Notes under the pieces: model-generated | What the model was told of the DNA's origin: nothing | Seen by the model: only the letters and a program-made list of their open reading frames with translations | Databases searched by the model: none | Assembly: GCA_050011435.1 (NCBI GenBank) | Contig: JBEKJC010000006.1 | Span: forward strand, 86,754 to 150,753 | DNA: 64,000 bases | Reading direction: 5' to 3' | DNA from: Candidatus Binataceae bacterium | Lineage (GTDB): Bacteria > Desulfobacterota > Binatia > Binatales > Binataceae | Position numbers and translations under genes: made by a program | Shown here: positions 10,844-64,000 of the stretch, piece by piece | Position numbering within the stretch: the first letter of the stretch is position 1 | How the letters are laid out: every line of letters starts with the position of its first letter

Positions 10844-11506
10844 ATGAAGCTTGTTCACGCCACTTGGGAACCGTCGGGCCCCGGCCCGTTTCCGACGATT
10901 TTCGCGATGCATGGGTGGGGCTCCAACGCGATGGACCTGCAGGGGCTCGCGCCATTCGTCGCCGACGGCCGCTTCCTCGTCATCTGCCCGCAAGGATCGT
11001 TCGAAGTCGAAATCGGTGCGATCAACGGATATGGCTGGTACCAGATGCGCCCGGGTTCGCAGCCCGACCCTGAGAAAGTCGATGTGGCAGTGGATCAATT
11101 GCGCGAGTTCATCGACGACGCTTGTGCACGCTATCCGGTTGATCCGAGCAAGATCGTGGTGGCGGGATTCAGCCAGGGCGGCTATATGGCGTACAGCCTC
11201 GCGATGCGCTGGCCGGAGCGCTTCGCCGCGCTGGTCGGAATCGCGACCGCGTTTCCCGAGCGCCTCACGAGCCTGGTCACGAATCATGAGGCGGTGCAGA
11301 AATTGCCCACGATGGTGCAGCATGGACGCGCCGACCAGGCGATTGATATGACCCGCGCGCGCAAGTCGGTTGAGGCGCTGCGTGAACTGAAAGTGCCGGT
11401 TGTATTTCGCGAGTACGATTGCGGTCATGAAGTCGCGGCCGACGGCATACGCGATCTCTCCGCCTTCCTGATCGACAAGGTCGCGGGGCCGATCAAACAG
11501 CCGTAG
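10844..11506 (+). CDS. Phospholipase/carboxylesterase family alpha/beta hydrolase
   Basis: GFSQGG nucleophile elbow with a conserved His near the C-terminus. GGAG SD before the ATG at 10844. Confidence 0.8.
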   Translation: MKLVHATWEPSGPGPFPTIFAMHGWGSNAMDLQGLAPFVADGRFLVICPQGSFEVEIGAINGYGWYQMRPGSQPDPEKVDVAVDQLREFIDDACARYPVDPSKIVVAGFSQGGYMAYSLAMRWPERFAALVGIATAFPERLTSLVTNHEAVQKLPTMVQHGRADQAIDMTRARKSVEALRELKVPVVFREYDCGHEVAADGIRDLSAFLIDKVAGPIKQP

Positions 11507-11537
11507 CGGCCGGCCGCGTTTTGTTGGATTTTCGCGC

Positions 11538-34288: not shown

Positions 34289-36063
34289 TTAGAGCAGGTT
34301 AAAGTTGTACTGGAACTGCGCGAGCAGCATGCTCTGACCCTTCAAGATACCACCGCCTGCGGCATAGTTCATGTCGCCGCCGAGGATTTCGATCGCCTGC
34401 AGCTTCAAGAAATACTGCTTGGTCCACGGCGGATTCAGCACTACTGACGGGAACAGCAGGAAGGTTTTCCCTTTGGGACTGTAAACCATCGTCCACGCCG
34501 GCTGGATATCGTTCCACAGCCACGAGGTACCAATGTTTAGCAGCGTGCTGACGTTGTTCTTGATGGTCGCTTCGGATTCCAGCGCACCGCCGGTCCATGG
34601 CCCAGCGGTCGCCTGGCAGGAATTGCCACAATCCAAGGCGATGTTGTCGTAGACCTCGACATTAGCCGACAGATTGCCCGTGGCCGTGAGCCACGGTGCA
34701 TAGGCCTGGTCGACATCCAAGGCGAGCATCCAGTTGATCGTATCGGTATACTGGACACCATCCGGGTTGCTAATGTAATTCCAAGTGGCGGTCGCCTGAT
34801 GGTTGGTATAGACGCCTTCGGCGCGACCGACCAGCGGCAGATATTCCCCGATCGCTGCGGGCACGGGCAGCGGCATGTCAGCCGTCACCCCGAACATATT
34901 CTCGGGGACGAACTTGTTCATGAAATTCAGCGTGTACTGCTGCCAGAAGCTGTTCGGATAGAGGTTCCAGGCGTTGTAGTAGAAGGCAGTCGCCTCCAGC
35001 GGACCGACCAGCGTGTGGAAGCGAAGACCCTCGTTCCAGTTCGCCACCGTCGAGGCAGGAATCTTCCACTGGGGTTCACCCGCACTGAAGCCGGGTCCGC
35101 CGCTACAAGGTTTCTGCAGTTTCACCGGCACCGGGTTGAACGGCTGAGAAGCCGAACCGAGGTTGGTGCAATAGAAGAACGCGTTGGAGTACGGCTGGTT
35201 GAAGAAGGCGCTCCTCTGTTGCGGATAGCCTTGCGGCGTATATATCGAACCAGGCCCGGTTGCCCCCGATATTGCGGTCACGCCCGGAACATATTTCGTG
35301 TCGAAGTGCGCGCCGAAGCGGCCGGTCGGGAGGAAGCCGATGCCCGCCGGGAAACCGTTGTTCACGCTACCGCCGTTGACGTTGCACTCGCCGTCATACC
35401 GATGGTCCGCGTAGTCGCAGCTATTCCACATCGGCTGCAGGCGCGGCAGCAGAATGCCCTCGACAAAGTTCGAATTGAACGGTCCAAATTCCGGCAGGTT
35501 CAGGATCGGATGGATCATCCACTGCGGAATGCGCGACTGCTCGAGGTTGGCGAAGCCGAAGGCCCAGGTCGTGTCCTGCGGATTGACCACGTCGCCCACG
35601 CGAAACGCCAGCGACTGGCCCCACACCACGATCTGGTTGCCTCAAACGCATACGGCGGCTCGTAAACGAACCACTCGCGCATGAACAGGTTGTTGTTCTC
35701 GTTGAGCCGCAGGTTCTCGTCCACCTGCAGCCACGTGCGCGACGTCGCCAGGCTGTTGCGGCTGGTAGTGAACGACCGCAGACCCTCCGGGTTCTGCCAC
35801 ATGGCGAAGGTCTGGCTGAGAAAACCCGAGACGTGGAATCCGCTCAACCAACTGTTCTCTGCGGACGTACCGCCCGCCGGCGTCTGCGGCAATACCGATG
35901 CCGCCGCCCCGGTTACGTTGAGAGTGTTACCTGGAGTTGCCGAAAGGTCTGCGGCGAACGCGCGCACACCGGTTGAAATGACCAAAGCCAGAGCCACCAT
36001 TGCGGCAGCCATGACGCCCCCTCCGCCTCGGGATATCCCGACGGTCGGAACACTTGTCCCCAT
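34289..36063 (-). pseudogene. Outer-membrane beta-barrel protein gene (DUF1302-like) interrupted by a single-nt frameshift near 35638-35643
   Basis: ORF 35515..36114 has a signal peptide (MAAAMVALALVISTGVRAFA) and an aromatic/Asn-rich OMP N-terminal part, then R/S/P gibberish. ORF 34289..35629 continues the Gly/Asn/aromatic-rich barrel in the -1 frame. Restoring one G in the GAGG|CAACC run gives continuous ...PYAFEGNQIVVWGQ.... Confidence 0.6.
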
Positions 36064-36540
36064 TAGTCTCCTCCTCTGAGCAAATAAGTCGCTCGTGTCA
36101 TCCCCCGACGACACGCCGAATGCCCTGCGAATAAACGACTCGCCCTGGCGTTTTACCCCCGCAACCAGTCGAGCCTTGCGCCGCGCCCCTGGGGCCGGCG
36201 CCCTCCCCGCTTCATGTTTCGAAACGGGACGGTACTACGCGATTCAGAGAAACTACGAGTTGGTTCTTATAAAAACCGGCGAGACTTTACAATAGGTGCG
36301 CAACTAATTTTTAAAAATTAGTTTTCTCTGCAAATTTGACCGCCTGGGCCCGCCACAGCATGAATGCGGGAGATGAAACAGAGACTCCCCGCGAACTCTA
36401 CGGAAAGCGCATCCGGACGATCCGGCAAATTCTTATTGCCGCCCGGTTACTACTGCGTGAATTTAAATCCTACCTGTCATTAAGCGCGAAATGCTCGTGC
36501 GGGAACTGAACCAGGCCGATCGAATTGGTAAAGTGCACAT

Positions 36541-37526: not shown

Positions 37527-37769
37527 TTAGCGCGCGGGCTCCTCGTCGAGGAGCTCGAAGAAGGCATCGATGCTTTGCATCAACTGGCGGCGAATTTGGG
37601 CGCGCGTGCCCTCGATCAGATGCATCGTGACGCGGCGCTGGGAGCCGTCGGCGAGGCGGACCTGAGCGTCATCGACGAGGGCGACCTCGGCCGGTTCGAA
37701 AATTCGCATCCCATAGATGAGCGCGCTGCGCTGTGCTGCGCCCTTGACCAGTTTGAGCTTGCGCGCCAT
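37527..37769 (-). CDS. Small (80 aa) hypothetical protein, possibly AbrB/MazE-like swapped-hairpin
   Basis: MARKLKLVKG... with a strong GGAGGAGG SD 8 nt upstream. Acidic C-terminus. No confident family assignment. Confidence 0.45.
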   Translation of the reverse strand: MARKLKLVKGAAQRSALIYGMRIFEPAEVALVDDAQVRLADGSQRRVTMHLIEGTRAQIRRQLMQSIDAFFELLDEEPAR

Positions 37770-37936: not shown

Positions 37937-38368
37937 ATGCGTGATCGGTTGATGCTTGTTGCTGCGATGGTCCTCACGAGTTGCCTGATGTCGCTCTGCG
38001 GATGCGGTCTGGCCTACCAGGCCGGGTCGCGGATCAAAACGAGCCACATGGAGGATACGCTCAAGCCCGGAGCAACCACCACGGAAATTCGTAGGGATTG
38101 GGGCGAGCCCGATCTGCGCAAGGATCTGGGCGCCAATTCGGCGATCTGGAGCTATGCGCGGCGCCCTAACAGCAACGACTTCGCCGCGACGATCTTCTAC
38201 ACGTCAACCAAGTCCGGCGACGAGAGCAAATTCCTGGATTTGAAGTTTACCGACGGCAAACTCGTCTCATGGTCGGAGTCCGAGCGCACAATGCCGGCGA
38301 AACAGGGAGCCGGCTTCAGCTACGGATTTGGGCCGGGCGGTGCGGTCTCGCCGGTCACGCGCTATTAG
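37937..38368 (+). CDS. BamE/SmpA-OmlA-like lipoprotein
   Basis: Lipobox LMSLCGC. KPGATTTEIRRDWGEPD...WSY...LKFTDGKLVSW matches the BamE fold pattern. Confidence 0.55.
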   Translation: MRDRLMLVAAMVLTSCLMSLCGCGLAYQAGSRIKTSHMEDTLKPGATTTEIRRDWGEPDLRKDLGANSAIWSYARRPNSNDFAATIFYTSTKSGDESKFLDLKFTDGKLVSWSESERTMPAKQGAGFSYGFGPGGAVSPVTRY

Positions 38369-38535
38369 GCTGGAGCGCCCGTGCGAGTGCACCCTTATTG
38401 CAACAGGCTCAGCGCATCATGTCTAATTGTGTAAAGATGATTTTCAGAGCCGCGCGAGATGTGCGCGGCGCAAGTAATGCCAGCTTCAGGCGGCGGGATC
38501 GGAGGCTCAAGGCGTAGGTTGGGAAAGGTGTTTTA

Positions 38536-40251
38536 ATGGCGACTGCGCGCAGCGGCTTCGAATCGATCCTGCTCGATCGCTCGTGGGTATCGCCACAAGA
38601 TCTCGCAAAGGCTCATCAGCGCAAGAAACCGGGACAGGAGATTGCCGACGTCCTGATTGACATGGGCGCGCTCGAACCGCAGCGCCTGGCCCGCGCGCTG
38701 GCGCAGGAATACGGCCTGCCCTTTCAGGCCCATATCGACGCCGCCACTCTCGAAAACGACTTGGTCGCGAAAGTCCCGATAAATTACGCCAAGCGCAACC
38801 GCTTGCTGCCGGTCGCGAGCGATGGCGCGACGGTCACGGTGGCGATAGCCGATCCCGCCAATTACGAACCGCTCGACGACCTACACGTGCTCTTCGGCAA
38901 GCCGATCGTGGCGGTAGTGGCGCCGGCCGAGGTTATCAACGAGGCGATCAACCGCGCCTACGACCAGGCGGCGACGACCACGGCCCATGACCTGATGATC
39001 GATCTCGAGGAGGACCGGCTCGACCAGGTCGCGAGCGAACTGGCGTCGGAGCCGCGCGACTTGCTCGAGGCCGACGATGCCGCGCCGATTATCCGGCTGG
39101 TCAACGGGCTGCTGTCGCAGGCGGTGAAGGACCGCGCGAGCGATATCCATATCGAGGTGTTCGAGCGCGACCTGGTGGTGCGCTTTCGCGTTGACGGCAT
39201 GCTCTTCGACGTGTTGACGCCGCAGAAGCGTTTTCACGCGGCGATCGCCTCGCGCATCAAGGTCATGTCGGGCCTCAACATCGCGGAGAAGCGGCTACCG
39301 CAGGACGGGCGCATCCGGCTGCGCATCGCCGGGCGCGACATCGATATCCGGGTCTCGACCATCCCGACGGCATTCGGCGAGCGGATCGTGCTGCGATTGT
39401 TGGACCGGGCGCAGGCGCTGGTCGATGTGAACCTGGACCGGCTGGGATTCTCGGGCGACAATCTGCCCAAAATCGAGCGGCTGATTCATCAGAGCCATGG
39501 CATTATCCTGGCGACTGGCCCGACCGGTTCGGGCAAGACGACGACGCTGTACGCATGCCTCAGCCGGATCAATTCACCTGAAAAGAACATCATCACGATC
39601 GAAGATCCGATCGAGTATCAGCTCCACGGTGTCGGCCAGATGCAGGTCAGTCCGAAGATCGAGCTGACCTTCGCCAACGGGCTGCGTTCGATTTTGCGCC
39701 AGGATCCCGACGTGATCATGGTCGGTGAAATCCGCGACAGCGAGACCGCCGAGATCGCGATCCAGGCGGCGCTAACCGGGCATCTGGTGTTCTCGACGCT
39801 GCATACCAACGACTCCTTCGGCGCGCTGACGCGGCTGATCGACATGGGGATCGAGCCTTTCCTGGTGTCGTCGTCGGTAATCGCGGTGCTGGCGCAGCGC
39901 CTGCTGCGCGTGGTGTGCAACGATTGCCGCCAGCCGTACAACCCGACCGAAGCGGAGCTCACCCGGATCGGTCTCGGCGGAGTGCGCCTGACCAAGCCGA
40001 TCTATCGGCCAGCCGGATGCAAGGCCTGCCGCAATACCGGATATCGCGGCCGTACCGCCATCACCGAACTGATGGTGGTCGATGACGATGTGCGGGGCCT
40101 CGTGATGCAGAAGGCTGACGGCTCGATGATCCGGCGCGCGTGCACCGCCAAGGGCATGAAGCTGCTGCGCCAGGATGGCGCCGATCGCATCCTGGCGGGG
40201 CAAACCACGGTCGAGGAGTTGTTGCGCGTTACGCAGGAAGACCTCGCCTAG
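38536..40251 (+). CDS. gspE: Type II secretion system ATPase GspE
   Basis: N1E domain, Walker A GPTGSGKTTTL, Asp/His boxes, and a tetracysteine motif (CNDCRQ...CKACRNTGYRGR). Confidence 0.95.
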   Translation: MATARSGFESILLDRSWVSPQDLAKAHQRKKPGQEIADVLIDMGALEPQRLARALAQEYGLPFQAHIDAATLENDLVAKVPINYAKRNRLLPVASDGATVTVAIADPANYEPLDDLHVLFGKPIVAVVAPAEVINEAINRAYDQAATTTAHDLMIDLEEDRLDQVASELASEPRDLLEADDAAPIIRLVNGLLSQAVKDRASDIHIEVFERDLVVRFRVDGMLFDVLTPQKRFHAAIASRIKVMSGLNIAEKRLPQDGRIRLRIAGRDIDIRVSTIPTAFGERIVLRLLDRAQALVDVNLDRLGFSGDNLPKIERLIHQSHGIILATGPTGSGKTTTLYACLSRINSPEKNIITIEDPIEYQLHGVGQMQVSPKIELTFANGLRSILRQDPDVIMVGEIRDSETAEIAIQAALTGHLVFSTLHTNDSFGALTRLIDMGIEPFLVSSSVIAVLAQRLLRVVCNDCRQPYNPTEAELTRIGLGGVRLTKPIYRPAGCKACRNTGYRGRTAITELMVVDDDVRGLVMQKADGSMIRRACTAKGMKLLRQDGADRILAGQTTVEELLRVTQEDLA

Positions 40252-40281
40252 CGTGCGCGCCGTCCATCTGGACTAATCCCA

Positions 40282-41511
40282 ATGCCGGTATTCGCTTACC
40301 GCGGTTTGTCCGCCAACGGGCGCTCGATCGCCGGTGTGATCGACGCCGACAGCGCCCGCAGCGCGCGCGGCAAGTTGCGCGACCTCGGGATTTTCCCGAC
40401 CGACCTGGGCGAAGAGGCGGCCGCCGCGCGCGGCTCGGGATGGTCGCTGCGCAGCCTGCTGCCGGTAATGCAGCGCCGTATACCGGCGACGGAACTGGCC
40501 CTGATGACGCGGCAGATGAGTGCCCTGCTGGGCGCCGGCGTGCAACTGACCGAAACCCTGGGCACGCTCGCGGAGCAGGCCACGCGGCCCGCCGTCAAGC
40601 GGATGCTCTCGCAAGTGCGCGAGGCCGTGCGCGAGGGCTCTTCGCTGGCCGACGCGCTAGCGGTGCATCCCGACATCTTTTCCGATCTTTACGTCGGGAT
40701 GGTGCGGGCAGGTGAGACTGCCGGAGCGCTCGAGGCGGTGCTCGATCGGCTGGCGGAATACAGCGAGCGCCAGGCCGAGTTCGTCTCCAAGGTACGCGGC
40801 GCGCTGACCTATCCGATCATCATGATGTGCGTCGGTCTCGCGATCATGGGCTTTCTGGTCAGTTACGTGGTGCCGCAAATCGCGACGATCTTTCAGCAGC
40901 AGCATGCGGCGCTGCCGACCATGACGCGTTGGCTGATAGCGTTCTCCGACTTCCTGACGACGTACTGGCTGGTACTGTTGATCGCCCTGGTGGGGCTGGC
41001 GGCCGCAATCCTGGCCGGACTCTCGAGCAAGCGCGGACGCCGGCTCTACGATGGGTGGCTGCTGCGCGTGCCATACCTCGGCCCGACCGTGATTCGAATC
41101 ATCTGCGCGCGGTTTGCGCGAACGCTCGCGACCCTGCTTTCGAGCGGCGTGCAGTTACTGCCGGCACTGACGGCCGTGCGCCGCGTCGTCACCAACGGCC
41201 TGCTGGCCGATGCGGTTGACGAAAGCCGCGAAAGTATCCGCGAGGGCCATGGCATGGGCCAGACGCTCGCCCGCAGCGGACTCTTTCCGCCGCTGTTGAT
41301 CGAGATGATCAAGGTCGGCGAACGATCCGGCGATCTCGAGCGGATGCTCGAACGGGTGGCCGACAATTATGAGCGCGAGGTGGAATCCTCGCTGCGCCAG
41401 ATGACCACCATGATCGAGCCGTTGATGACACTGGTGATGGCCGGGATGATATTGTTTATGATGTTGGCAGTACTGATGCCAATCTTTCAACTCAACCAGC
41501 TTATGCAGTGA
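40282..41511 (+). CDS. gspF: Type II secretion system inner-membrane platform protein GspF
   Basis: Two T2SSF repeats and three TM segments. Canonical position after gspE. Confidence 0.95.
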   Translation: MPVFAYRGLSANGRSIAGVIDADSARSARGKLRDLGIFPTDLGEEAAAARGSGWSLRSLLPVMQRRIPATELALMTRQMSALLGAGVQLTETLGTLAEQATRPAVKRMLSQVREAVREGSSLADALAVHPDIFSDLYVGMVRAGETAGALEAVLDRLAEYSERQAEFVSKVRGALTYPIIMMCVGLAIMGFLVSYVVPQIATIFQQQHAALPTMTRWLIAFSDFLTTYWLVLLIALVGLAAAILAGLSSKRGRRLYDGWLLRVPYLGPTVIRIICARFARTLATLLSSGVQLLPALTAVRRVVTNGLLADAVDESRESIREGHGMGQTLARSGLFPPLLIEMIKVGERSGDLERMLERVADNYEREVESSLRQMTTMIEPLMTLVMAGMILFMMLAVLMPIFQLNQLMQ

Positions 41512-41581
41512 TGGCTGCCTTCGGTGTTAATTGGCGCCAGTGATAATTGCGGCAATGATGCCCAACTCAAGGATGAAAACG

Positions 41582-42022
41582 ATGCGTGACAGGCTCCGCC
41601 GATCTCAGGAAGGTTTCACCCTGATCGAACTCATGGTGGTCATCTTGATCATCGGACTGCTGGCCACGATCGTGGTACAGAACCTCAAGGGCGCGACCGA
41701 CAAGGCCAAACGAATCAAGGCGCAGGCGGATATCTCGGCGTTCAAGACTGCGCTCGATCGCTATTACCTCGACAACGGCGCATACCCTTCAAGCGACCAA
41801 GGACTGGCGGCGTTGGTCAGCGCACCGCAAAACGGCAAGGTGCCGGCCGATTATCCTTCTGGCGGATACATCGAAAAAATTCCGAACGATCCGTGGGGCA
41901 ACCCATACGTCTATCAGAGCGACGGCGACAATTACGTGCTGAAGTCGTACGGCGCCGATGGAGTCGAGGGCGGCACCGGGAAGAACGCGGATATTGACGG
42001 CAGCAGCAACGGCGGCGGCTAG
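41582..42022 (+). CDS. gspG: Major pseudopilin GspG
   Basis: Prepilin leader + GFTLIELMVVILIIGLLA. The GspG-specific DPWGNPYVY calcium-binding region. Confidence 0.9.
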   Translation: MRDRLRRSQEGFTLIELMVVILIIGLLATIVVQNLKGATDKAKRIKAQADISAFKTALDRYYLDNGAYPSSDQGLAALVSAPQNGKVPADYPSGGYIEKIPNDPWGNPYVYQSDGDNYVLKSYGADGVEGGTGKNADIDGSSNGGG

Positions 42023-42087
42023 CGCAAGCGCGACCCTTGCCGAAGCTTTGGCGCCATTGGGCCACAAGGCGAATCGTTGACAATTTG

Positions 42088-42645
42088 ATGCGCGAAACAC
42101 GACCGCCGCGAGCTTATCGACGCTTCCAGCGCGGCTTCACGTTGCTCGAACTGGCGGTCGTGATGTTCCTGATCGGGCTCGTGATGACGATCGCGATGCC
42201 CTACTTCGGCAGCATGCAGACCTCGCAGATGCGCAGCGAAGCGCGCCGCCTGGCCAGCCGCGCCAACTATCTTTATCAGGAGGCGGGGGCGCAGAAGGTG
42301 ATCCTGCGCCTGACCTTCGATCTCGCCAATAACGGATACTTCGCCTCGCGCTTAGACCCGTTCGCGGTCAAGCCCGCGTTCCTTCCGGAAAATGGACCGG
42401 CCGGCGTGCGCGTCGTGATGCCCGCGGGTGTCTGGATTCGCGATGTCACGGTCGAGGGGCTGGGGACCGTGCGGCGCGGACTCGTGAGCGCCCAGTTCTA
42501 TCCGGGCGGTTCCGTGGACGCGACTCTGATTCATCTGGCCGACAGCAAGGGCGAGGTCTTCACGCTGGCGATCGATCCATTCAGCGGCCACGTTTCGATC
42601 GTTCGGGGCGACGTGGGTCCCACACGCGGCGGGGCCTCCCAGTGA
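42088..42645 (+). CDS. gspH: Minor pseudopilin GspH-like
   Basis: RGFTLLELAVVMFLIGLV prepilin N-terminus at an internal ATG (42088). Confidence 0.75.
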   Translation: MRETRPPRAYRRFQRGFTLLELAVVMFLIGLVMTIAMPYFGSMQTSQMRSEARRLASRANYLYQEAGAQKVILRLTFDLANNGYFASRLDPFAVKPAFLPENGPAGVRVVMPAGVWIRDVTVEGLGTVRRGLVSAQFYPGGSVDATLIHLADSKGEVFTLAIDPFSGHVSIVRGDVGPTRGGASQ

Positions 42646-43139
42646 AGTGCGAAGAGGTTGCGCACGCCGATCGGGCGGCCGTCGCAAACGGGGCATCGTG
42701 CAACGCGCGCAGTGGTTTTACGCTGCTGGAGGTGATGATCGCGGTCGCCTTTATCGGAATCGCGATGCTCGCGCTGCTGTCGCTGCATCAGAGCAACCTC
42801 GCCTCTGTAATTCGCGCGCAAGACCTGACCCGCGCGTCGATGCTCGGGCAGCAATTGATGAGCACGGCCGAGGCGGAGCGTTTCCCGCTACCGGGGCAGA
42901 CCCGCGGCGACTTTTCCCGTGATTATCCGGGCCTGTACCAGAATTTCCGCTGGGAGCGCACGGTTGATGTGCTGCCGGAGTTCCCCGACGTGCGGCGCGT
43001 GCGCATCAGCATCATCTACGGCCATCGCTTCGGCCGCCGCTTCAACTTGCTGGAATTCATGCACAACCCCACTCCTCCGCAAATTCCCGGACTGAACGCC
43101 GGCGCCAATTCAAGCGCCTCGGACGATGCGGTCCAATGA
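42642..43139 (+). CDS. gspI: Minor pseudopilin GspI-like
   Basis: SGFTLLEVMIAVAFIGIAMLALL prepilin N-terminus. GTG start overlapping the gspH stop. Confidence 0.75.
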   Translation: MKCEEVAHADRAAVANGASCNARSGFTLLEVMIAVAFIGIAMLALLSLHQSNLASVIRAQDLTRASMLGQQLMSTAEAERFPLPGQTRGDFSRDYPGLYQNFRWERTVDVLPEFPDVRRVRISIIYGHRFGRRFNLLEFMHNPTPPQIPGLNAGANSSASDDAVQ

Positions 43140-43819
43140 TGCGTGCCCCACGCCTCCGCGAGCATCGCCCCTACGCCGCCGCGTTTACGCTGATCGAGAT
43201 CATGCTCGCGGTCGCGATCCTGGGGATGGTGCTGCTGATGCTCGCGGAATCGTTTCATGCGGTGGCAGGCAGCAAGGTCCACGGGGAGAATCGGATTGCG
43301 ATCGATCAGGCGGCGCGCACGATACTGTCGCAGATGAGCAACGAATTGCGTGGCGCGGTGCAAACTCCGTTTATCGCGAGCCGCGTAATTCTGCTGGGTA
43401 ACGCGCGCAAGGAAGGGGGCGCGCCAATGGACACCTTCACCGTATCGACGCTCGACCCGGGCCATCGGCGCAGCCTCGAGGGCTTCGGGCCGGAAGATAC
43501 GGTTGCCTACGTCACCACGCCAAATCCAGACCATCGCGGATGGTTCCTGTTGAAGCGGATTCAGTACAGTAGCCTGCTGACAAAGCCACCCACTCTCGAA
43601 AATTCGTCGCCAGTGCTGCTGGCCAACAACCTGATCTCACTCCATCTCCGTTATTTTGACGGCACGAACTGGCGCGAAAGCTGGGATTCGACCAGCCTCG
43701 CAGCCGGGCAAGCGCTGCCCGCGGAAATCGCCATTGACCTCAAAATGGGTTCGGGCGGCGGCGCCGCGCTCACGCTGTCCACCGCGGTCTCACCGCCGAT
43801 GGCTTTCCAGGCATGGTAG
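43136..43819 (+). CDS. gspJ: Minor pseudopilin GspJ
   Basis: AAFTLIEIMLAVAILG prepilin N-terminus. GspJ-like LRYFDGTNW...W region. ATGA overlap with gspI. Confidence 0.8.
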   Translation: MMRAPRLREHRPYAAAFTLIEIMLAVAILGMVLLMLAESFHAVAGSKVHGENRIAIDQAARTILSQMSNELRGAVQTPFIASRVILLGNARKEGGAPMDTFTVSTLDPGHRRSLEGFGPEDTVAYVTTPNPDHRGWFLLKRIQYSSLLTKPPTLENSSPVLLANNLISLHLRYFDGTNWRESWDSTSLAAGQALPAEIAIDLKMGSGGGAALTLSTAVSPPMAFQAW

Positions 43820-44787
43820 CGCCGGTCTTGAAGCTGATTCGGCGGGCGCGCCGGCCCGAGCGCGGAATCGCCCTGCTCGCGACGCTGCTTGCAATCGCGC
43901 TGATGACGATCCTGGTGGTCGATTTTGCCACCTCGGCGGCGCTCGGCTATCGTGCCGCCGCCAACCAGGCGGACGAATTGCGCGCGCTCTACCTCGCACG
44001 ATCGGCGATCCAGGTAGGGATCGCGATACTCGAGCGCGACTCGATCAGCGACGCGCAGCAGAAGACCCCATACGACTCGCTCACGGATGTCTGGGCAATC
44101 AAAGTTCCGCCGATTCCGGTCGAGGGCGGGACGGTCTCAGTCTCGATCATTGACGAGGCGCGCAAGCTCAATATCAATCAGCTTTACAATTTGCGTGCGC
44201 GCCAGGTTGACGACAAATTCGCCCAGGTGATTGCGCGGCTATTCGAGGGTATCGGCGTCTCAACCGATCTCATCCCGGTGCTGGTTGACTGGCTGGATCC
44301 CGACAGCGTCGAATCGCCGGGAGGCGCCGAAGCCGATTATTATTTGGGCCTGACGCCACCGTACGAGCCGCGCAACGGTCCGATGCCGACGATTGGCGAC
44401 CTGCGCGCGCTCAAGGGCGTGGACGACGCGGCCTTCATGCAACTCGCGCAATACCTGACCACGGCGCCCGAGGCGCGCATCAACGCCAACACCGCGTCGC
44501 CGGAGGTGCTGGCGGCGCTGACGCCGGAGTTGTCGAATAGCCCCGATCTGGTCAAGGCCATCATCACAGCGCGCGAGTACCGTCCATTTCTCGCGGTAAC
44601 CGATGTCGCGAATCTGCCGGGTATCGGACAGTTCGCCGCGCGTCTGACCCCGCTGTTAACCACGCGCAGCTCTTACTTTACGATTATCGGTCAGGGAGAA
44701 TTTGCCGGGGCGCGCCGGCGCATCTATGCGGTCTTTCGGCGCAATTCGAATGGCTCCGCGATGCTGATAAGCTGGCACGAAGATTAG
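43813..44787 (+). CDS. gspK: Minor pseudopilin GspK
   Basis: GIALLATLLAIALMTILVVDFA N-terminus. GspK size and position. NINQL... helix-hairpin-helix-like C-terminal region. Confidence 0.85.
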   Translation: MVAPVLKLIRRARRPERGIALLATLLAIALMTILVVDFATSAALGYRAAANQADELRALYLARSAIQVGIAILERDSISDAQQKTPYDSLTDVWAIKVPPIPVEGGTVSVSIIDEARKLNINQLYNLRARQVDDKFAQVIARLFEGIGVSTDLIPVLVDWLDPDSVESPGGAEADYYLGLTPPYEPRNGPMPTIGDLRALKGVDDAAFMQLAQYLTTAPEARINANTASPEVLAALTPELSNSPDLVKAIITAREYRPFLAVTDVANLPGIGQFAARLTPLLTTRSSYFTIIGQGEFAGARRRIYAVFRRNSNGSAMLISWHED

Positions 44788-44834
44788 GCGTGCGGCGGGA
44801 CGACGAAGGTCATCGCGGAGAAGCGGAGATAAGG

Positions 44835-46298
44835 ATGGGGCTGCGAATCATGGCGCTGGAGTTGGCCGGCGAGCGGGTGCGCGCGGCGATTGCCGATCGC
44901 TCCTGGAACTCGCTCGAGCTGATCGGCGCGTGGGAGCAGCAACGCGGGCAGGACGAAGCCGACCTCGTGCCGGCGATCATGCGGATCATCGACGCGGCCG
45001 GCCATCCCGATATCCTGGTCTCGGCGCTGCCGGGCGAGTTCGTCGCCAAGCGGGTGCTCGCGCTGCCCTTTAGCGATCGGCGCCGGCTCGCGCAGGTGGT
45101 GCCATTCGCGCTCGAGGAGCATCTGCCGTTTCCGGTTGACGACGCCGCAGTCGCCTTCGCGCGCGTCGGCCGCGAGGATGCCAAGACCCTCGTCATCGCG
45201 GCCATCGCCCGCAAAGCGGATGTGCAAAGGCATCTCGAATTGCTGGCACGCGCGGGACTCGATCCCAAGGTCGTCACGCTCGGGACGCTCGCGTTGGCGG
45301 GCTTGCTGGCGCGTGCGCGCAACGGCGCGGGCGGCGCTCATCTGGTGGTCGACATCGATCACGCTTCGACCTCGATGGTGCTGATCGACTCGCGCGGCAC
45401 GCCACGGGCGGTGCGCACCGTCAGCCGCGGCATCGATCCGCACGACGGCGACGCCGCCCTGCCCATACCCGCAGCCGCGGTGATCCTGGGCGCGGTGCGC
45501 CAGACCCTGCTCGCGCATGGCTCGGACGAGGCGCCGCCCGATCTCGTGTTGACCGGCGCGGCCGCGGCCACGCCCGCGGTTCGCGAACAGATCGGCGGCG
45601 GACTGGCCGTGCCGATCCATTACGTTGACGAATTCGATTGCTCGTCGTTCTTCGCCGGCAGTCGCACGGAGCCGGTCGCCTTCGCGCCGTGTCTCGCGAT
45701 GTTGCTGGCCGAGGCCCCCAGCAAGCCGCTCGAGCTGCTGAATTTCCGCCAGGGCGAATTTGCCTTTCGCGGACTGACGGGCCGGCTGGGTCCGCTGCGG
45801 CTCACGACCACGCTGGCCGCGGTGGCAATCGTTCTTGCGTTGCTGAATTTCCTGATCGGGGTCGCGGTCAACGCTCGGCAGTTGCATCTGTTGAATCGCC
45901 AGATCGCGGAGGTCACCGCACCCGCTCTGGGTGACACGGACCCGGCCATGGCGCAGACCGCGCTGAAGCAAAAGATTGCCGCGATGCGCAAGCGGCTGCA
46001 TCTGATGGGCGGTAACCTCGGCCACGGGTCGCCGCTCGACGAGCTGCTCGCGCTTTCCCGCGCGATTCCGCCCGGAGTGCCGATGCAGGTGAACGACCTC
46101 GTGGTGGACGACAGCGGACTCAAGATTGAAGGCACCGCGGATTCCTTTGCCACGGTTGACCAGGTCAAAAAGGCGCTCGAACGGACGCCGGAATTCGGAT
46201 CGATCCAGGTCGAACATGCGACCGCCGGTTCGGATCCCGGCAAGATCGATTTCCGACTCAACGTGACGCCGCGGGAAAGCGCGACGGGAGCCGACTAG
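44835..46298 (+). CDS. gspL: Type II secretion system protein GspL (PilM-like cytoplasmic actin-fold domain + TM + periplasmic domain)
   Basis: MGLRIMALELAGERVRAAIAD actin-like N-domain, a single TM (TTLAAVAIVLALLNFLIGV), and a periplasmic C-domain. GGAGA SD. Confidence 0.75.
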   Translation: MGLRIMALELAGERVRAAIADRSWNSLELIGAWEQQRGQDEADLVPAIMRIIDAAGHPDILVSALPGEFVAKRVLALPFSDRRRLAQVVPFALEEHLPFPVDDAAVAFARVGREDAKTLVIAAIARKADVQRHLELLARAGLDPKVVTLGTLALAGLLARARNGAGGAHLVVDIDHASTSMVLIDSRGTPRAVRTVSRGIDPHDGDAALPIPAAAVILGAVRQTLLAHGSDEAPPDLVLTGAAAATPAVREQIGGGLAVPIHYVDEFDCSSFFAGSRTEPVAFAPCLAMLLAEAPSKPLELLNFRQGEFAFRGLTGRLGPLRLTTTLAAVAIVLALLNFLIGVAVNARQLHLLNRQIAEVTAPALGDTDPAMAQTALKQKIAAMRKRLHLMGGNLGHGSPLDELLALSRAIPPGVPMQVNDLVVDDSGLKIEGTADSFATVDQVKKALERTPEFGSIQVEHATAGSDPGKIDFRLNVTPRESATGAD

Positions 46299-46301
46299 GC
46301 C

Positions 46302-47009
46302 ATGGCCGTGAACTTGAGGGAACTGCCGGAGAAGCTGCGGACGGCGGCGGGCGAGCGGATGCGCGCGCTCGCGGGCGCCCCGATGGTGCGCAAATCGATC
46401 GATCGCGCCAAGACCATCGTTGGCCGCGGGGCCGAGGAGTTGGGGCGCCGCATCGCGCCGGCCTGGCAGGCCGCGCACGGCTGGTACTCCAAACGCGAGC
46501 AGCGCGAAAAGCTCTTGCTGCGCATCTTCGGTGCGGTCCTCGGGGTGATCGTGCTCTACAATTTCATCTATCTGCCGTTTGTCGGCCTGGGCGAGGGTTT
46601 CGGCGACCGGGTGGTGACGCGCCAGCAACAATTGGCCGAGGTCCGCACCATGATGCGCTCGTACCAGCAAATTAAAGTCGAACTCGCCGCGACCGAAAAG
46701 CGCACCGTGCGAAGCAAGGACTTTTCGCTCTTTTCGATCATCGAGCAGTCCCTGACCAGGAGCGTCGGCCGCGACAAAATCAGCTCGATAACGCCGTCGG
46801 ACCGGACGGTGCCGGGCGGTTATCAGCAGTTCACGGTCGATCTCAAGTTGGCGGGACTTAACCTTGCGCAAATTGTCGACGCGCTTTACGGCGTGCAGAC
46901 GCTGCCGATGCCGGTGACGGTCTCCAACCTGCACCTGCGTCAGCGCACCCAGGACCCGCATTCCTACGACGTCGATATGACCTGCATGTCGTTGGGCCGC
47001 AATGGCTGA
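46302..47009 (+). CDS. gspM: Type II secretion system protein GspM-like
   Basis: Single TM (ILLRIFGAVLGVIVLYNFIYLPF) plus a periplasmic domain. Canonical position. Confidence 0.7.
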   Translation: MAVNLRELPEKLRTAAGERMRALAGAPMVRKSIDRAKTIVGRGAEELGRRIAPAWQAAHGWYSKREQREKLLLRIFGAVLGVIVLYNFIYLPFVGLGEGFGDRVVTRQQQLAEVRTMMRSYQQIKVELAATEKRTVRSKDFSLFSIIEQSLTRSVGRDKISSITPSDRTVPGGYQQFTVDLKLAGLNLAQIVDALYGVQTLPMPVTVSNLHLRQRTQDPHSYDVDMTCMSLGRNG

Positions 47010-47871
47010 AAAAGCCGCAACGATGCCGGCCGCGGGATCGATTCGCGGGCGCTCTGCAATCATCGCATGTGCGGTGATTGGCGTGGCGGTCTTCGCGGCC
47101 TTCCTGGTCGCCGACTTTCCCTATAGCGATACGCTCACGTCGATGCTCGCCCCGTACCAATTGAAGCTCACCTACCAGTCGCAGCACCTCAGTCCGCCGA
47201 TCGGCGCTACGCTGACCGACGTGCGCCTGTTCTCGACCGCGGGAATCAATGACGAGGCGTTGCTACAAAGTCCTGCCGTGACGCTCGCACCAACGCTCGC
47301 GGCGCTGCTGCTCGGGCGGCGGGGTATGCACGTGCATGCAGAACTCTATGGCGGTACGGTCCATGTGACGATTTATCAGTATGCTGACAACGTCGATTTG
47401 AAATTCAACCTGGATTCACTGAAGCTCGGGGAGAGCCCGCCGCTAAGGCAGCTGGGCGTGATTTTGAACGGCGATTTGTCGGGTGCCGGCACCGCGCATA
47501 TCGCCGGGCCGAAGCTTCCCGACGATCGCGCCGCGATGGTGATAACCGGCGATAACCTCGCGTTTTCGGTCGTCCGTGGCTTCCCCGCGATCCATCTCGG
47601 GACGCTGACCGGAAATCTCCAATTGGATCAGGGCGCGATCAAGCTGACCGATATCGTCGCGCATGGTGCGGACCTCGACCTCAAGGGCGCCGGCACTATT
47701 GAACTCGGCGACAGCCCCGACGACAGCACCATCGACGTGACCTTCTATCTCATTCCGACACAGAGCGGCCGCGATCATTTCGGCTTCTTCCTCAAGCTGC
47801 TGCCGCATCCGCCGGGCCCCGACGCACCCTATATCCTCCAGGGCTATCTGCGGTCGCCGTCGATCAACTGA
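47002..47871 (+). CDS. gspN: Type II secretion system protein GspN-like
   Basis: N-terminal TM plus a periplasmic domain. Last gene of the gsp operon. Overlaps the gspM stop. Confidence 0.65.
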   Translation: MAEKAATMPAAGSIRGRSAIIACAVIGVAVFAAFLVADFPYSDTLTSMLAPYQLKLTYQSQHLSPPIGATLTDVRLFSTAGINDEALLQSPAVTLAPTLAALLLGRRGMHVHAELYGGTVHVTIYQYADNVDLKFNLDSLKLGESPPLRQLGVILNGDLSGAGTAHIAGPKLPDDRAAMVITGDNLAFSVVRGFPAIHLGTLTGNLQLDQGAIKLTDIVAHGADLDLKGAGTIELGDSPDDSTIDVTFYLIPTQSGRDHFGFFLKLLPHPPGPDAPYILQGYLRSPSIN

Positions 47872-49206: not shown

Positions 49207-49394
49207 GGTTACACTGCCTGAAAAGGGCCTGCGGTTTGCGCGTGTCAGCCGGCTAGTGTGTATTTCGCTGGACCATTGACCCGCTATGATGCGTAACGGA
49301 AACTGGAGCCCACCCGTTTAGATGATCCCGCGCGGCCAACGGTCGTGCGGGGTGAATAGAACACGCCTCGATGACGATTCAAAAGGAAACAAGT

Positions 49395-50913
49395 GATGGC
49401 CTACGGGAAGTTGGGAAGGCTGTGCCTGGTCCTCGGTGGCATCTGGATTATCGCCTCGGTGCGTCCGGCAAATGCGGTCGCTGCAAGCGAGGCCCAGACG
49501 CTCAACCGGATCATGCACGAAGTGGATGAGCTGAAGGCCGACAAAGAACAGGACGAAAAGAAAATCCAGGATCTCGAACAGAAGGTCGGCGAGATCCAGG
49601 GTCAGAATCAGCAACTGAAGGCAGCAAATCAAAAGCTGCAAACCGATACCAGCGCGAAGATCGAAACCCTGCAGACGAAGGTCGAAGCGCCATTGGCGAC
49701 ATCGCAGTTTGGCGATGCCTTCGATCGATACCTGGGCTCACACACCTTCACGGTGACCGGGGCGGCCGGCGGCGACTTCATCTATAACCAACAAAGCAGC
49801 GCCCTCGACGGCCTTCATCATGCCTCGCAGAACTCGTTCTTTTTCGACTGGGAGCCGATGATTCTGTACCGCCCGACCGACTGGATCCTGTTTCAGGGCG
49901 TGCTTAGCGCGGGATTTGGAAGTACCGGGACGGGCACTGACCTGTCGACCGCCGATTTCCAGATCACGGTTAACGACTATTTAACAGTCGTGGCCGGTCT
50001 GTTCGATCAACCGTTCGGTGACTGGTACGAGAACCAGAGCCCGATGTGGGTGAATCGGTTTGTCACAGCGCCGCTGCCGTTTGGAGTTGAGCCGGTAGTG
50101 CCGCCGGCGGAGCTTGGAGTCCAGCTGCGGGGCGGCCTGCAGTTCGCCGGCCTCGGTCAGGATTTCGACTATACGGTCTGGGGCGGCAACGGCCCGAACT
50201 ACAGCTCGCCAGTCCTTGGCGCGGCGGTCTCGAGCCCGACGGCAGTCGCCAACAGCCAGACCAACGGCAAATCAATCGGCGCCCGTTTTCGTGTCTATCC
50301 GCTGCCGGTTGATTTGGAAATGGGCCGGCTTGAACTCGGAGCATCCACCTATAATGGCAAGTGGGCAAATGGAAATTGGTTGAACTCATGGGGCGTGGAT
50401 TTCAACTATTTCGTCGATAACCTGCAAACTCGCGGCGAATGGCTGGAATCGTACCGCCAGATGCCCAACGGACAGGCCTCCGACAATCGCCAGGGATGGT
50501 ACCTACAGGCCGGTTACTTCTTAAACAGTCTTAATGTTCCGTTCCTACCCGATAGGCTCAACACCTATCTCCATCGATTAGAGCCGCTGGTGCGTTATTC
50601 GGGAGTTAACCAGCACGGCGTTTCAACCGACGACATCGCCGGGGCTACCGGTGTCGGCCTGGGCGGCATGCAGGTCGGGCTGATTCCCGATTTCGGCCTT
50701 AACGGTTCCCCGGCATTATACGCACCGCACTCTCGCGAAGTGGCTTTGGCGCTCGACTATTGGTTCGCACCATCGATCGTTTGGCAGAACGAATTCGACA
50801 TCGAATTGCCGCGGGCAGGAGGAGTATTCGTTTCATCGACTGGTGCCGAGACACCCGTGGGCGCAACTCCGAACGATCGCGCCTTCCTCACCCAATTCAC
50901 GGTCGGATTCTGA
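49395..50913 (+). CDS. Outer-membrane porin with N-terminal coiled-coil (OprO/P- or bbp2-like)
   Basis: Signal peptide and a 70-aa coiled-coil (ELKADKEQDEKKIQDLEQKVGEIQGQNQQLKAANQKL). Aromatic/Gly-rich barrel ending in a terminal Phe (FTVGF). Confidence 0.7.
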
Positions 50914-51780: not shown

Positions 51781-52740
51781 TTACGGCTCCGCCTTGAAGA
51801 TTCCCGCCGCACCCTTGTATTGGCTCGCGCGGTTGAGGTCCATGAAACTATAAATTCCGGGCTCGTTGACGGTGAATTCGAACACGGCGCCGTCGCTCGG
51901 CGCCACTTCGAAGGTGCTGATGCCGTGCATCGCATTGGCCGGATTGCCACCGCGATAGACGGTGCTGAACAGGACGCCGGCGACATGCCACGATGAGGTC
52001 ATATTGGGTCCGGCGTTGACAAAGAATACCCGCACCAGTTTGCCGACCTTCAACTTAATTGGATGGTCGCGGTCATACTTGTTCATCGCGCCGTCAAAGA
52101 CGATGAAATCGGGCTGCGCCGCAATCATTTTCGTATGGTCGCCGGTGATTAAACCCCGCTTGTCGGGCAAGCCGTAAAACTCGCTCTGCACCAGCGTCAC
52201 TTCCTGGGCGTCGCCGTCCGGCCATCCATCCTTCGGCTCAACGATCATCATCCCATACATGCCGCTGGCAATATGGTCGAGAATCGGCGGCGCGTAGCAA
52301 GTGTAAGCAAACACGCCCGGAACGGTGGCCCGGAACGTATAGCCGACCGGCTTGATCGGATCCCCGGCAAAATGTGAGGGGGCAACCTGCGCCGCGTGAA
52401 CGTTGATGCCGTGCGCGTCGCCAGTGTGATTGGCCAGAGCGATAGTCACGTCGTCGCCTTCACGCGCCTTGAGGACCGGCCCGGGCACGGTACCGTTGAA
52501 GGTCGTCGCGTTGTAGGTCACGCCAGTGCCAAGGCGGACGGGCTTGCTTTCGACGGTGAGCGTGAACTTTTGATCAGCCGCATCGGCCCGGAGCGAAAAT
52601 CCCGCCACGACCAGCATAACGGCGGCCGCCGCGGCGAGCGCGCGACCGACGAAATGCTTTGCAGTGTGCGCCATGAGGCGTCCCGCAATCCCATCCCCGT
52701 TATCGCAACGGCGCAGTGAATCCGAAGTCAGTAGGGCCAT
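51781..52740 (-). CDS. NirK-like two-domain cupredoxin (copper nitrite reductase homologue with apparently degenerate type-2 Cu site)
   Basis: HGINVHAA (cf. NirK HNVDFHAA) and YTCYAPPILDHIASGMYGMMIV (cf. [23 protein letters not shown]). The T1 Cu ligands H/C/H/M are retained. The T2 His next to the Cys is Thr, and the catalytic Asp of HNVDFH is Asn. Confidence 0.7.
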   Translation of the reverse strand: MALLTSDSLRRCDNGDGIAGRLMAHTAKHFVGRALAAAAAVMLVVAGFSLRADAADQKFTLTVESKPVRLGTGVTYNATTFNGTVPGPVLKAREGDDVTIALANHTGDAHGINVHAAQVAPSHFAGDPIKPVGYTFRATVPGVFAYTCYAPPILDHIASGMYGMMIVEPKDGWPDGDAQEVTLVQSEFYGLPDKRGLITGDHTKMIAAQPDFIVFDGAMNKYDRDHPIKLKVGKLVRVFFVNAGPNMTSSWHVAGVLFSTVYRGGNPANAMHGISTFEVAPSDGAVFEFTVNEPGIYSFMDLNRASQYKGAAGIFKAEP

Positions 52741-53193
52741 GTAGTTACCTCTTCCCGAGGCAGCGCAAGCTGCGTGAATACTTAGGTCATTGCTAGTCTT
52801 CCGGAATCCTAATCGAAAGGCGAGACCCGCGCGATGACGACAGGCGCACATACCCCAACTCGCGCTTGCGACCGCGTCGTTGTGCATCGCAGTTTAACGG
52901 GTGGCGCCGATCGAGACAGGGGGACTGATGCTTTTGGACGCAATAGCAAAGCTCTCGAGTCACAGAAATACTAATTTCAATGACAAATATATCTTAATCA
53001 ATGGAACATTTTATGCTGCGAAATGCCTTGGACCTATCGGGTTGCGCGACCGAAGGGAGCCAAGCATTTGCTTTGACTCCCCTCGTAGTCAAAGTTGCTC
53101 AGTTCTGTGATATAGGCTGAGATTAAGGACACGAGGGCCGCGGTAATGGTGAGGCCCGCGGTCGCCCGCGCCAATTTAGGGGGCGGGAAGTAT

Positions 53194-63904: not shown

Positions 63905-64000
63905 GAAACTCCGCCTTATCCGCCATGCGGCTCGTTTATGCACATTCACTCAGCCATAATCCCCTATTCAACCGACACAAACTATCGAACGGAATCAAAA

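What the first reader, a model, noticed from the sequence alone, without database searches (positions are those of the whole stretch)
37937..47871. Ten-gene T2SS operon (gspE-N) without secretin, GspC or prepilin peptidase in the window
gspE through gspN are tightly packed, with several overlaps of 4-10 nt and the remaining gaps of at most 70 nt. The outer-membrane secretin GspD, its partner GspC and the prepilin peptidase GspO are absent upstream and downstream. The gene immediately upstream is a BamE-like lipoprotein (a possible pilotin-like factor). Either the secretin is encoded remotely, or this apparatus is a pseudopilus system using a different outer-membrane conduit. GspL is a PilM-like fusion and GspM has a 60-aa cytoplasmic extension.
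Basis: partly seen in the sequence, partly recalled or inferred. Interest (0 to 1): 0.55.

Follow-up and report, generated by a model that had tools for sequence, protein, structure and literature searches.

The report
Binataceae type II secretion operon, secretin elsewhere
This is an intact type II protein-secretion operon (gspE to gspN) of an uncultured soil bacterium of the family Binataceae; the whole family keeps it without the outer-membrane pore gene next to it, which is unusual in layout but most likely just means the pore is encoded elsewhere in the genome.

Summary
Ten tightly packed genes, gspE to gspN (38536-47871, + strand), score as a type II secretion system (T2SS), six of them above curated NCBIfam cut-offs. 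37937 is the start of the lipoprotein gene, not of gspE. No secretin, GspC or prepilin peptidase lies in the window or in the stretches read beyond it (6.2 kb and 8.6 kb).

The window comes from a soil-metagenome Candidatus Binataceae (Binatota). The layout enoyl-CoA hydratase(-)/BamE-like lipoprotein/gspE-N recurs in 80 species genomes, none with gspC or gspD within 10 kb. All eleven genes are under purifying selection (dN/dS 0.03-0.27).

The closest relatives outside the family, including other Binatia, carry the ordinary gspC-gspD-gspE...N operon. The uncoupling is therefore derived in Binataceae.

I could not locate the family's secretin because the genome-wide search tools were exhausted. 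A promising "orphan" gspC-gspD pair proved to belong to a different split T2SS, on contigs that mostly do not look like Binataceae.

The best reading is a functional T2SS whose secretin, GspC and peptidase act in trans, as in Legionella. GspL is an ordinary GspL. The GspM extension is real but shorter than claimed. The pilotin idea is untested. I file it as a new member of a known kind, of modest interest.

The parts
37937..38368 (+). 143-aa lipoprotein with a BamE/BLIP-like fold. It always lies upstream of gspE in Binataceae. Whether it acts in secretion is unknown.
   Evidence: It has a lipobox (LCG|C). Its family has only 129 proteins. It is present in 71 of 71 loci that have sequence upstream of gspE, median spacing 212 nt. 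The AF2 model has pLDDT 70 and its top Foldseek hits are BamE/BLIP at E 5e-3 to 1e-1. Pfam BamE is sub-threshold. dN/dS is 0.15-0.21. A restriction-modification pair sits between it and gspE in L070, so co-transcription is not obligatory.
38536..40251 (+). gspE, the secretion ATPase, with an N-terminal MshEN domain
   Evidence: TIGR02533 scores 708 bits (cut-off 630). The PilB model scores 597, below its cut-off of 675. Pfam finds T2SSE and MshEN.
40282..41511 (+). gspF, the inner-membrane platform protein
   Evidence: TIGR02120 scores 460 bits (cut-off 424). Pfam T2SSF matches twice.
41573..42022 (+). gspG, the major pseudopilin (prepilin motif G|FTLIELMVV)
   Evidence: TIGR01710 scores 157 bits (cut-off 89). 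The start is taken from the gene call in L001.
42088..42645 (+). gspH-like minor pseudopilin
   Evidence: It has the N_methyl motif. TIGR01708 scores 43 bits, below its cut-off of 80. The assignment rests on position and motif.
42642..43139 (+). gspI-like minor pseudopilin
   Evidence: It has the N_methyl motif. The XpsI and GspI models are sub-threshold.
43136..43819 (+). gspJ-like minor pseudopilin
   Evidence: It has the N_methyl motif. Pfam T2SSJ scores 25.1 bits, below its gathering score of 28.
43813..44787 (+). gspK, minor pseudopilin
   Evidence: NF037980 scores 208 bits (cut-off 130). Pfam finds T2SSK_1st and T2SSK.
44835..46298 (+). gspL, assembly-platform protein with a PilM-like cytoplasmic domain and a PilN-like periplasmic domain, as in GspL generally
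   Evidence: TIGR01709 scores 73 bits (cut-off 65). Pfam finds T2SSL, PilN and PilM_2.
46302..47009 (+). gspM, with a longer cytoplasmic N-terminus than canonical GspM
   Evidence: Pfam T2SSM scores 29.7 bits (gathering score 27.8). The orthologue alignment shows residues from ~24 onward conserved, and the modal length is 214 aa.
47002..47871 (+). gspN of the Leptospira type
   Evidence: TIGR04411 scores 100 bits (cut-off 50). There is a weak AsmA hit and no Pfam hit.

Best explanation
The locus encodes the inner-membrane and pseudopilus part of a working type II secretion system in a Candidatus Binataceae bacterium. GspE is the ATPase and GspF, GspL, GspM and GspN form the platform. They assemble a GspG pseudopilus tipped by GspH, GspI, GspJ and GspK, which pushes folded periplasmic proteins out through an outer-membrane secretin.

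In this family gspC and gspD were uncoupled from the ancestral gspC-D-E...N operon. The secretin, its GspC adaptor and the prepilin peptidase are supplied in trans from other loci.

Shown: the gene identities, the intactness, the purifying selection, the family-wide conservation of the layout without gspC-gspD, and its derived status. Inferred: that a secretin and GspC exist elsewhere in the genome, and that the system secretes proteins.
For: - T2SS-specific models are passed by GspE, F, G, K, L and N, and by GspM in Pfam.
- The organism is Binataceae. The same layout is found in 80 species genomes, with GspF 68-94% identical. Of the 52 loci with full flanks, 50 carry the complete E-N set.
- dN/dS is 0.03-0.27 for all eleven genes against four relatives.
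- The closest GspE relatives outside the family (53-67% identity) all sit in canonical gspC-gspD-gspE...N operons. These include contigs labelled Candidatus Binatia. The ancestor therefore had a cognate secretin.
- T2SS genes in this family tolerate splitting. L026 and L069 keep only the lipoprotein gene and gspE-F-G at the locus.
- A related soil lineage has gspC-gspD and gspE-N as two convergent units 6-9 kb apart.
- In Legionella the T2SS genes lie in five loci and pilD lies with the pilus genes (PMC6617341).
- The canonical relatives also lack a peptidase gene in the operon.
Against: - No secretin or GspC gene was tied to any Binataceae genome.
- The 120 best GspD relatives of a canonical query (41% identity or more) carry the labels Binatia six times and Deltaproteobacteria four times, but never Binataceae. 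Binataceae-labelled proteins are in that database, as 3 of the 120 lipoprotein hits show.
- None of the 80 loci has gspC or gspD within 10 kb.
- The split gspC-gspD contigs that I found do not have Binataceae-like tetranucleotide composition.
Confidence: 0.72

Rival explanations
1. The operon has no dedicated GspD or GspC. It borrows the secretin of another machine in the same cell, such as a second complete T2SS or a type IV pilus PilQ.
For: The Binataceae proteins are no closer to the canonical T2SS of Binatia-labelled contigs (GspE 55-58%, GspF 39-42%) than to systems of unknown lineage. That fits a separate, possibly secondary, system. No Binataceae-labelled GspD appears among the canonical-type hits. 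From my own knowledge, secretin substitution is known in Pseudomonas aeruginosa, where XqhA can stand in for XcpQ.
Against: No second T2SS or pilus locus was seen in any Binataceae sequence held here. T2SS platforms normally dock to the secretin through GspC, and no substitute is evident in the operon. GspL, GspM and GspN lengths are similar to those of canonical relatives.
Confidence: 0.13
2. Binataceae have lost secretin-dependent secretion. The pseudopilus either works with a non-secretin outer-membrane conduit, perhaps helped by the BamE-like lipoprotein, or serves a periplasmic function.
For: Neither gspC nor gspD is within 10 kb in any of the 80 species. In 71 of 71 loci a lipoprotein restricted to the family sits where gspC-gspD sit in relatives. 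No Binataceae-labelled GspD was found.
Against: No diderm T2SS without a secretin is known to me. No candidate conduit is conserved at the locus: the porin-like protein downstream is present only in the closest relatives, and the gap genes are hydrolases. The lipoprotein is small, BamE-like, and separable from gspE by a restriction-modification insertion. The search that failed to find the secretin was truncated at 120 hits.
Confidence: 0.1
3. The operon is a decaying remnant left after the secretin genes were lost.
For: gspC and gspD are missing. Two species retain only gspE-F-G at the locus.
Against: All genes are intact, and dN/dS is 0.03-0.27 at dS 0.4-1.3. The full set is conserved in 50 of the 52 fully covered species genomes.
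Confidence: 0.03

Closest known systems
Canonical Gsp type II secretion operon (gspC-D-E-F-G-H-I-J-K-L-M-N), seen here in L089-L093 and in about 20 metagenome loci
   Same: It has the same ten E-N components in the same order, a Leptospira-type GspN-sized last gene, and no peptidase gene in the operon.
   Different: gspC and gspD are not attached. The operon sits in a different genomic neighbourhood, after enoyl-CoA hydratase and the lipoprotein gene rather than between lysS and a receiver-LpxC fusion gene. GspE is only 53-67% identical and GspF 39-52%.
Legionella pneumophila Lsp T2SS
   Same: T2SS genes are distributed over separate loci, with lspC alone and pilD with pilus genes (PMC6617341). 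This shows that trans-encoded components make a working system.
   Different: In Legionella lspD stays beside lspE and the rest is split into several pieces. Here E-N stay together and only gspC-gspD are apart. The organism belongs to a different phylum.
Split convergent T2SS in soil metagenome contigs (L095, L114, L118, L132)
   Same: gspC-gspD are separated from gspE-N, and one 90%-identity cluster member is labelled Candidatus Binatia.
   Different: There the two units remain 6-9 kb apart next to lysS. Their GspL, GspM and GspK are only 27-35% identical to the window's and closer to canonical ones, and GspN found no window-type match. Their tetranucleotide composition is mostly not Binataceae-like.
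Type IVa pilus machinery (PilB/C, PilMNOPQ)
   Same: It has a homologous ATPase, platform and pilin-like subunits. GspL resembles PilM plus PilN.
   Different: The PilB model falls below its cut-off while the GspE model passes. GspK and GspN are present, and the operon has no PilT, PilP or PilQ.
BamE (SmpA/OmlA) lipoproteins
   Same: The lipoprotein has a lipobox and small size. The predicted two-helix, three-strand core matches BamE structures (TM 0.50-0.56 on the target).
   Different: Pfam BamE scores 13 bits against a cut-off of 23 for the window protein. The conserved Gly-rich C-terminal tail ending in HY or HF is modelled with low confidence. The strict linkage to gspE is not a BamE trait known to me.

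Membership tests
Type II secretion system (Gsp) | GspE-type ATPase | tested here: met
   TIGR02533 scores 708 bits, above its cut-off of 630. The PilB model is below its cut-off.
Type II secretion system (Gsp) | GspF platform protein and GspG major pseudopilin | tested here: met
   TIGR02120 scores 460 (cut-off 424) and TIGR01710 scores 157 (cut-off 89).
Type II secretion system (Gsp) | Minor pseudopilins GspH, I, J and K | tested here: met
   GspK scores 208 (cut-off 130). H, I and J have prepilin motifs and the expected positions, but their family scores are sub-threshold.
Type II secretion system (Gsp) | Assembly platform proteins GspL and GspM (and GspN) | tested here: met
   GspL scores 73 (cut-off 65), Pfam T2SSM 29.7 (gathering score 27.8), and TIGR04411 GspN 100 (cut-off 50).
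Type II secretion system (Gsp) | Outer-membrane secretin GspD | tested here: inconclusive
   It is absent from the window, from the stretches read beyond it (6.2 and 8.6 kb), and from within 10 kb of the operon in 80 relatives. The rest of the genome could not be searched.
Type II secretion system (Gsp) | GspC adaptor linking the platform to the secretin | tested here: inconclusive
   There is no PF11356 hit, and tblastn with two GspC sequences finds nothing in the same stretches. The rest of the genome was not searched.
Type II secretion system (Gsp) | Prepilin peptidase (GspO/PilD) | tested here: inconclusive
   PF01478 is absent from the stretches covered. It is also absent from the canonical relatives' operons, so it is normally encoded elsewhere in this group.
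Type II secretion system (Gsp) | Secretion of folded periplasmic proteins | not testable with these tools
   This needs a secretome comparison of a mutant or a heterologous reconstitution. The organism is uncultured.
Type IVa pilus | PilB above its model cut-off, a PilT retraction ATPase, and PilM-N-O-P-Q | tested here: not met
   PilB scores 597, below its cut-off of 675. No PilT, PilO, PilP or PilQ gene is in the operon.
BamE (PF04355) | Sequence match above the gathering score, and a role in the BAM complex | tested here: inconclusive
   The window protein scores 13.1 bits against 23.2. Of 31 homologues, 18 match at E of 1 or less, best 0.0018. The fold matches are weak. The role is not testable here.
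T2SS pilotin (GspS/AspS type) | A small outer-membrane lipoprotein that binds the secretin S-domain | not tested
   No pilotin family appeared in the Pfam or NCBIfam scans. With no secretin in hand, no interaction could be modelled.

The most novel reading that the evidence does not exclude
Binataceae genomes encode no GspD or GspC at all. A fully conserved, selected T2SS pseudopilus module then works through some other outer-membrane route, such as a borrowed PilQ-type secretin or a non-secretin conduit. The family-specific BamE-like lipoprotein that replaced gspC-gspD upstream of gspE would be part of that route.
Probability: 0.1. Interest if true: 0.75.

Novelty: new member of a known kind. 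Interest (0 to 1): 0.3.

Why it matters
Secretion systems of the phylum Binatota are not discussed in the main genomic survey of the phylum, and full-text searches pairing the clade names with secretion terms found no paper that treats them. This locus shows that the dominant soil family carries a conserved, selected T2SS whose pore genes are uncoupled from the machine genes. It gives a natural case for asking how a T2SS platform finds a secretin encoded in trans. If no secretin exists, the question becomes what else a pseudopilus can use. As it stands the finding is mainly a well-documented operon variant.

Tried and rejected
1. A secretin hidden among the large unannotated ORFs near the operon. 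The 506-aa ORF downstream is a porin-like beta-barrel with a coiled coil. The ORFs upstream belong to a DUF1302 outer-membrane protein.

2. A secretin in the variable flanks of relatives. The large unmatched ORFs are CoA-transferase, GlgB, FtsH, cytochromes, an ABC transporter, transglutaminase, a restriction-modification pair and an alpha/beta-hydrolase.

3. Reaching the Binataceae secretin by homology.
- A GspD query from the closest canonical relative gave only canonical-operon secretins for the hits I could look up.
- The tail group of that search gave an apparently orphan gspC-gspD pair. I first took it for the missing partner.
- Its contigs carry their own inverted gspN-M-L-K-J 6-9 kb away, of a type closer to canonical systems.
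- A tetranucleotide classifier rates 17 of the 21 such contigs as not Binataceae-like, mean score 0.32. The same classifier recognises held-out Binataceae genes and species in every case.
- I therefore reject that pair as the partner.

4. Anchoring by the conserved neighbour lysS. A LysS profile search returned no Binataceae-labelled hit. The one look-up I had left showed a high-GC contig without a T2SS.

5. Literature. The Binatota survey has none of the words secretion, secretin, pili or pilus, and no paper found in the searches treats T2SS in Binatota or Binataceae.

6. Contig-length matching to the megabase-scale Binataceae genomes failed, because those genomes appear not to be in the protein database.

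Full report
**What is there.** The + strand between 38536 and 47871 carries ten genes with overlaps of 4-8 nt or gaps of 3-65 nt.
- Pfam and NCBIfam identify them as gspE, F, G, H, I, J, K, L, M and N.
- The curated equivalog cut-offs are exceeded by GspE (708 vs 630 bits), GspF (460 vs 424), GspG (157 vs 89), GspK (208 vs 130), GspL (73 vs 65) and the Leptospira-type GspN model TIGR04411 (100 vs 50).
- GspM passes the Pfam gathering score.
- GspH, GspI and GspJ carry prepilin motifs but only sub-threshold family scores.
- The type IV pilus ATPase model PilB stays below its cut-off. This is therefore a T2SS, not a pilus or Tad system.
- The coordinate 37937 given in the finding is the start of a separate 143-aa lipoprotein gene (37937-38368), 167 nt upstream of gspE.

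**What is absent.**
- Gene calls with precomputed Pfam hits on contigs of the same organism cover window positions -6233 to 72641. They show ordinary housekeeping and metabolic genes and no secretin (PF00263), GspC (PF11356) or prepilin peptidase (PF01478).
- My own scans of the long ORFs agree.
- tblastn with genuine GspC and GspD sequences, obtained later, finds no match in the window, its extensions or 80 related loci.

**Whose genome.** Identical proteins occur on JGI and ENA soil-metagenome contigs, the longest being Ga0439241_0000071 at 183 kb.
- A scan of one genome per GTDB species with GspF returned 80 loci. Nearly all are labelled Candidatus Binataceae, Binatus, or "delta proteobacterium" MAGs. 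GspF identity is 68-94%.
- Synteny is striking: enoyl-CoA hydratase(-), a conserved 80-aa ORF(-), the lipoprotein gene(+), gspE-N, and usually a luciferase-like monooxygenase.
- Of the 52 loci with full 10-kb flanks, 50 have all of gspE-N.
- All 71 loci with sequence upstream of gspE have the lipoprotein gene, at a median distance of 212 nt.
- Pairwise dN/dS against four relatives is 0.03-0.27 for every gene at dS 0.4-1.3. The operon is maintained by selection and is not a remnant.

**Derived or ancestral?** A search of 1.8 billion representative proteins shows the nearest GspE outside the family at only 53-58% identity.
- The contexts of these and of other relatives are canonical. L087 and L089 carry gspC-gspD-gspE...(N).
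- So do contigs labelled Candidatus Binatia or Deltaproteobacteria (L090-L093). There the operon lies between lysS and a receiver-LpxC fusion gene.
- In a metagenome scan, the canonical operons with the highest similarity to the window (GspE 62-67%, GspF 50-52%) again start with gspC-gspD.
- Hence the ancestor of the Binataceae system had a cognate GspC and GspD, and their absence from the operon is a derived, family-wide trait.
- None of the canonical operons contains a prepilin peptidase. The missing gspO is therefore the norm in this group.

**The hunt for the missing secretin.** I seeded a search with the GspD of L089.
- The 120 listed hits (41% identity or more) carry the labels Binatia, Deltaproteobacteria and others, but never Binataceae.
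- Those I could look up were in canonical operons.
- The weakest group (~42%) led to L095, where gspC-gspD is followed not by gspE but by unrelated genes. For a while this looked like the missing half.
- A metagenome scan with an alignment of that group showed its usual context to be lysS(-) gspC gspD, then p644(-) selD(-) selB(-).
- In L095, L114, L118 and L132 an inverted gspN-M-L-K-J set follows 6-9 kb downstream.
- L118's GspL, GspM and GspK are only 27-35% identical to the window's, its GspN found no window-type match, and all but GspM score highest with canonical systems.
- I trained a tetranucleotide classifier on the flanks of 52 Binataceae loci. It recognises every held-out T2SS segment and all 23 held-out species (means 0.84 and 0.90). 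It gives the split-system contigs a mean of 0.32, with 19% above 0.5.
- I therefore treat that split system as a parallel case in another lineage, not as the partner of this operon.
- A LysS profile search meant to anchor the ancestral position in a labelled Binataceae genome found none in its 120 listed hits.
- With all genome-wide tools exhausted, the location of the Binataceae secretin remains open.

**Why a remote secretin is still the best reading.**
- A complete, selected pseudopilus machine in a diderm has no known use without a secretin (my knowledge). The window itself encodes LptE and outer-membrane beta-barrel proteins, so this organism is a diderm.
- T2SS genes spread over several loci make a working system in Legionella, where lspC stands alone and pilD lies with pilus genes (PMC6617341).
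- Within Binataceae the cluster is demonstrably breakable. L026 and L069 keep only the lipoprotein gene and gspE-F-G, followed by coaE. L070 has a restriction-modification pair inserted between the lipoprotein gene and gspE.
- The failure to see a Binataceae GspD is weak evidence. The listing was cut at 41% identity, and the Binataceae GspF is itself only 39-52% identical to canonical GspF, so the cognate GspD may fall below the cut.
- I put 0.72 on trans-encoded cognate GspC and GspD, 0.13 on sharing another system's secretin, 0.10 on no secretin at all, and 0.03 on decay.

**The side claims.**
- The lipoprotein has a lipobox and a family of only 129 proteins, a few of which JGI annotates as BamE.
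- Its AlphaFold model (pLDDT 70) has a helix-helix-three-strand core. The best Foldseek matches are BamE and the related BLIP fold, at weak E-values.
- Pfam BamE is sub-threshold in 18 of 31 homologues, and a profile search hits a BLIP-like structure at E 9e-4.
- "BamE-like" is fair. "Pilotin" is speculation. The protein could equally be the cell's ordinary BamE that happens to be linked to the operon.
- GspL is a normal GspL. The PilM-like and PilN-like halves are what GspL is (my knowledge), and canonical relatives give the same Pfam hits.
- The GspM N-terminal region is longer than in canonical relatives (214-235 aa against 183-188 aa). Only residues from about 24 onward are conserved, so the true extension is about 30-45 aa.

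**Verdict.** The thing is an ordinary T2SS in composition, from a phylum whose secretion systems are not treated in the literature I searched. Its operon layout is family-specific, and the secretin genes are uncoupled from it. That layout is a variant of something already known from other bacteria. It would become remarkable only if complete Binataceae genomes prove to have no secretin, which one simple profile search on OY970324.1 would settle.

Noticed in passing
window 34289-36114 (- strand): A DUF1302-family outer-membrane protein gene carries a 103-nt deletion, hence a frameshift, relative to the otherwise identical JGI contig, where it is an intact 608-aa gene (L001:5651-7477). This is either a strain variant with a disrupted gene or an assembly difference.
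   Followed up: partly
window 37527-37769 (- strand): A conserved 80-aa ORF lies between the enoyl-CoA hydratase gene and the lipoprotein gene, divergent from the T2SS operon. It is also present in L070 and matches no family.
   Followed up: partly
L070 5509-7944: A type II restriction-modification pair (a DNA methylase and a 457-aa nuclease-like protein) is inserted between the lipoprotein gene and gspE in one Binataceae species.
   Followed up: partly
L026 and L069, downstream of 11700: In two Binataceae species the operon stops after gspG. coaE and a CoA-transferase gene follow, and gspH-N are not at the locus.
   Followed up: partly
L030 ~11230-11800 (also L043, L044, L049, L056): A partial duplicate of about 570 nt from the 3' half of gspF sits between gspF and gspG.
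   Followed up: partly
L095, L114, L118, L132 (e.g. L118 9112-22202): Soil-metagenome contigs carry a T2SS split into two convergent units: lysS(-) gspC gspD, then p644(-) selD(-) selB(-), then gspN-M-L-K-J on the minus strand. One 90%-identity cluster member is labelled Candidatus Binatia.
   Followed up: yes
L089 13570-14838 (- strand); also the ends of L090, L092 and L093: The canonical Binatia T2SS operons are followed by a gene that fuses a response-regulator receiver domain to LpxC, an unusual domain combination.
   Followed up: no
window 49393-50913 (+ strand): A 506-aa outer-membrane beta-barrel protein has a signal peptide and an N-terminal coiled coil. The coiled coil gives a weak hit to the FapF amyloid transporter. 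The protein is next to the operon only in the closest relatives.
   Followed up: partly
window 38536-38710 (GspE N-terminus): GspE has an MshEN domain. The c-di-GMP-binding motif model NF053729 scores 27.9 bits, below its cut-off of 38. Regulation by c-di-GMP is therefore possible but not shown.
   Followed up: no
window 20060-21469 (- strand): PlsX carries a C-terminal extension of about 140 aa beyond the end of the family model.
   Followed up: no
37 Binataceae loci between gspN and the luciferase-like gene (e.g. L063 17767-18693, - strand): An alpha/beta-hydrolase gene occupies the gap in 37 relatives but is absent from the window, where the gap is 330 nt.
   Followed up: partly
window 51781-52887 (- strand), 53146-54681 (+) and 62753-63949 (-): A multicopper oxidase and two NHL/Vgb-lyase-type beta-propeller proteins lie downstream of the operon. 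At least the last has an N-terminal hydrophobic segment with a lipobox-like motif. They may be exported proteins. A multicopper oxidase homologue also lies downstream of the operon, on the opposite strand, in five distant relatives.
   Followed up: no
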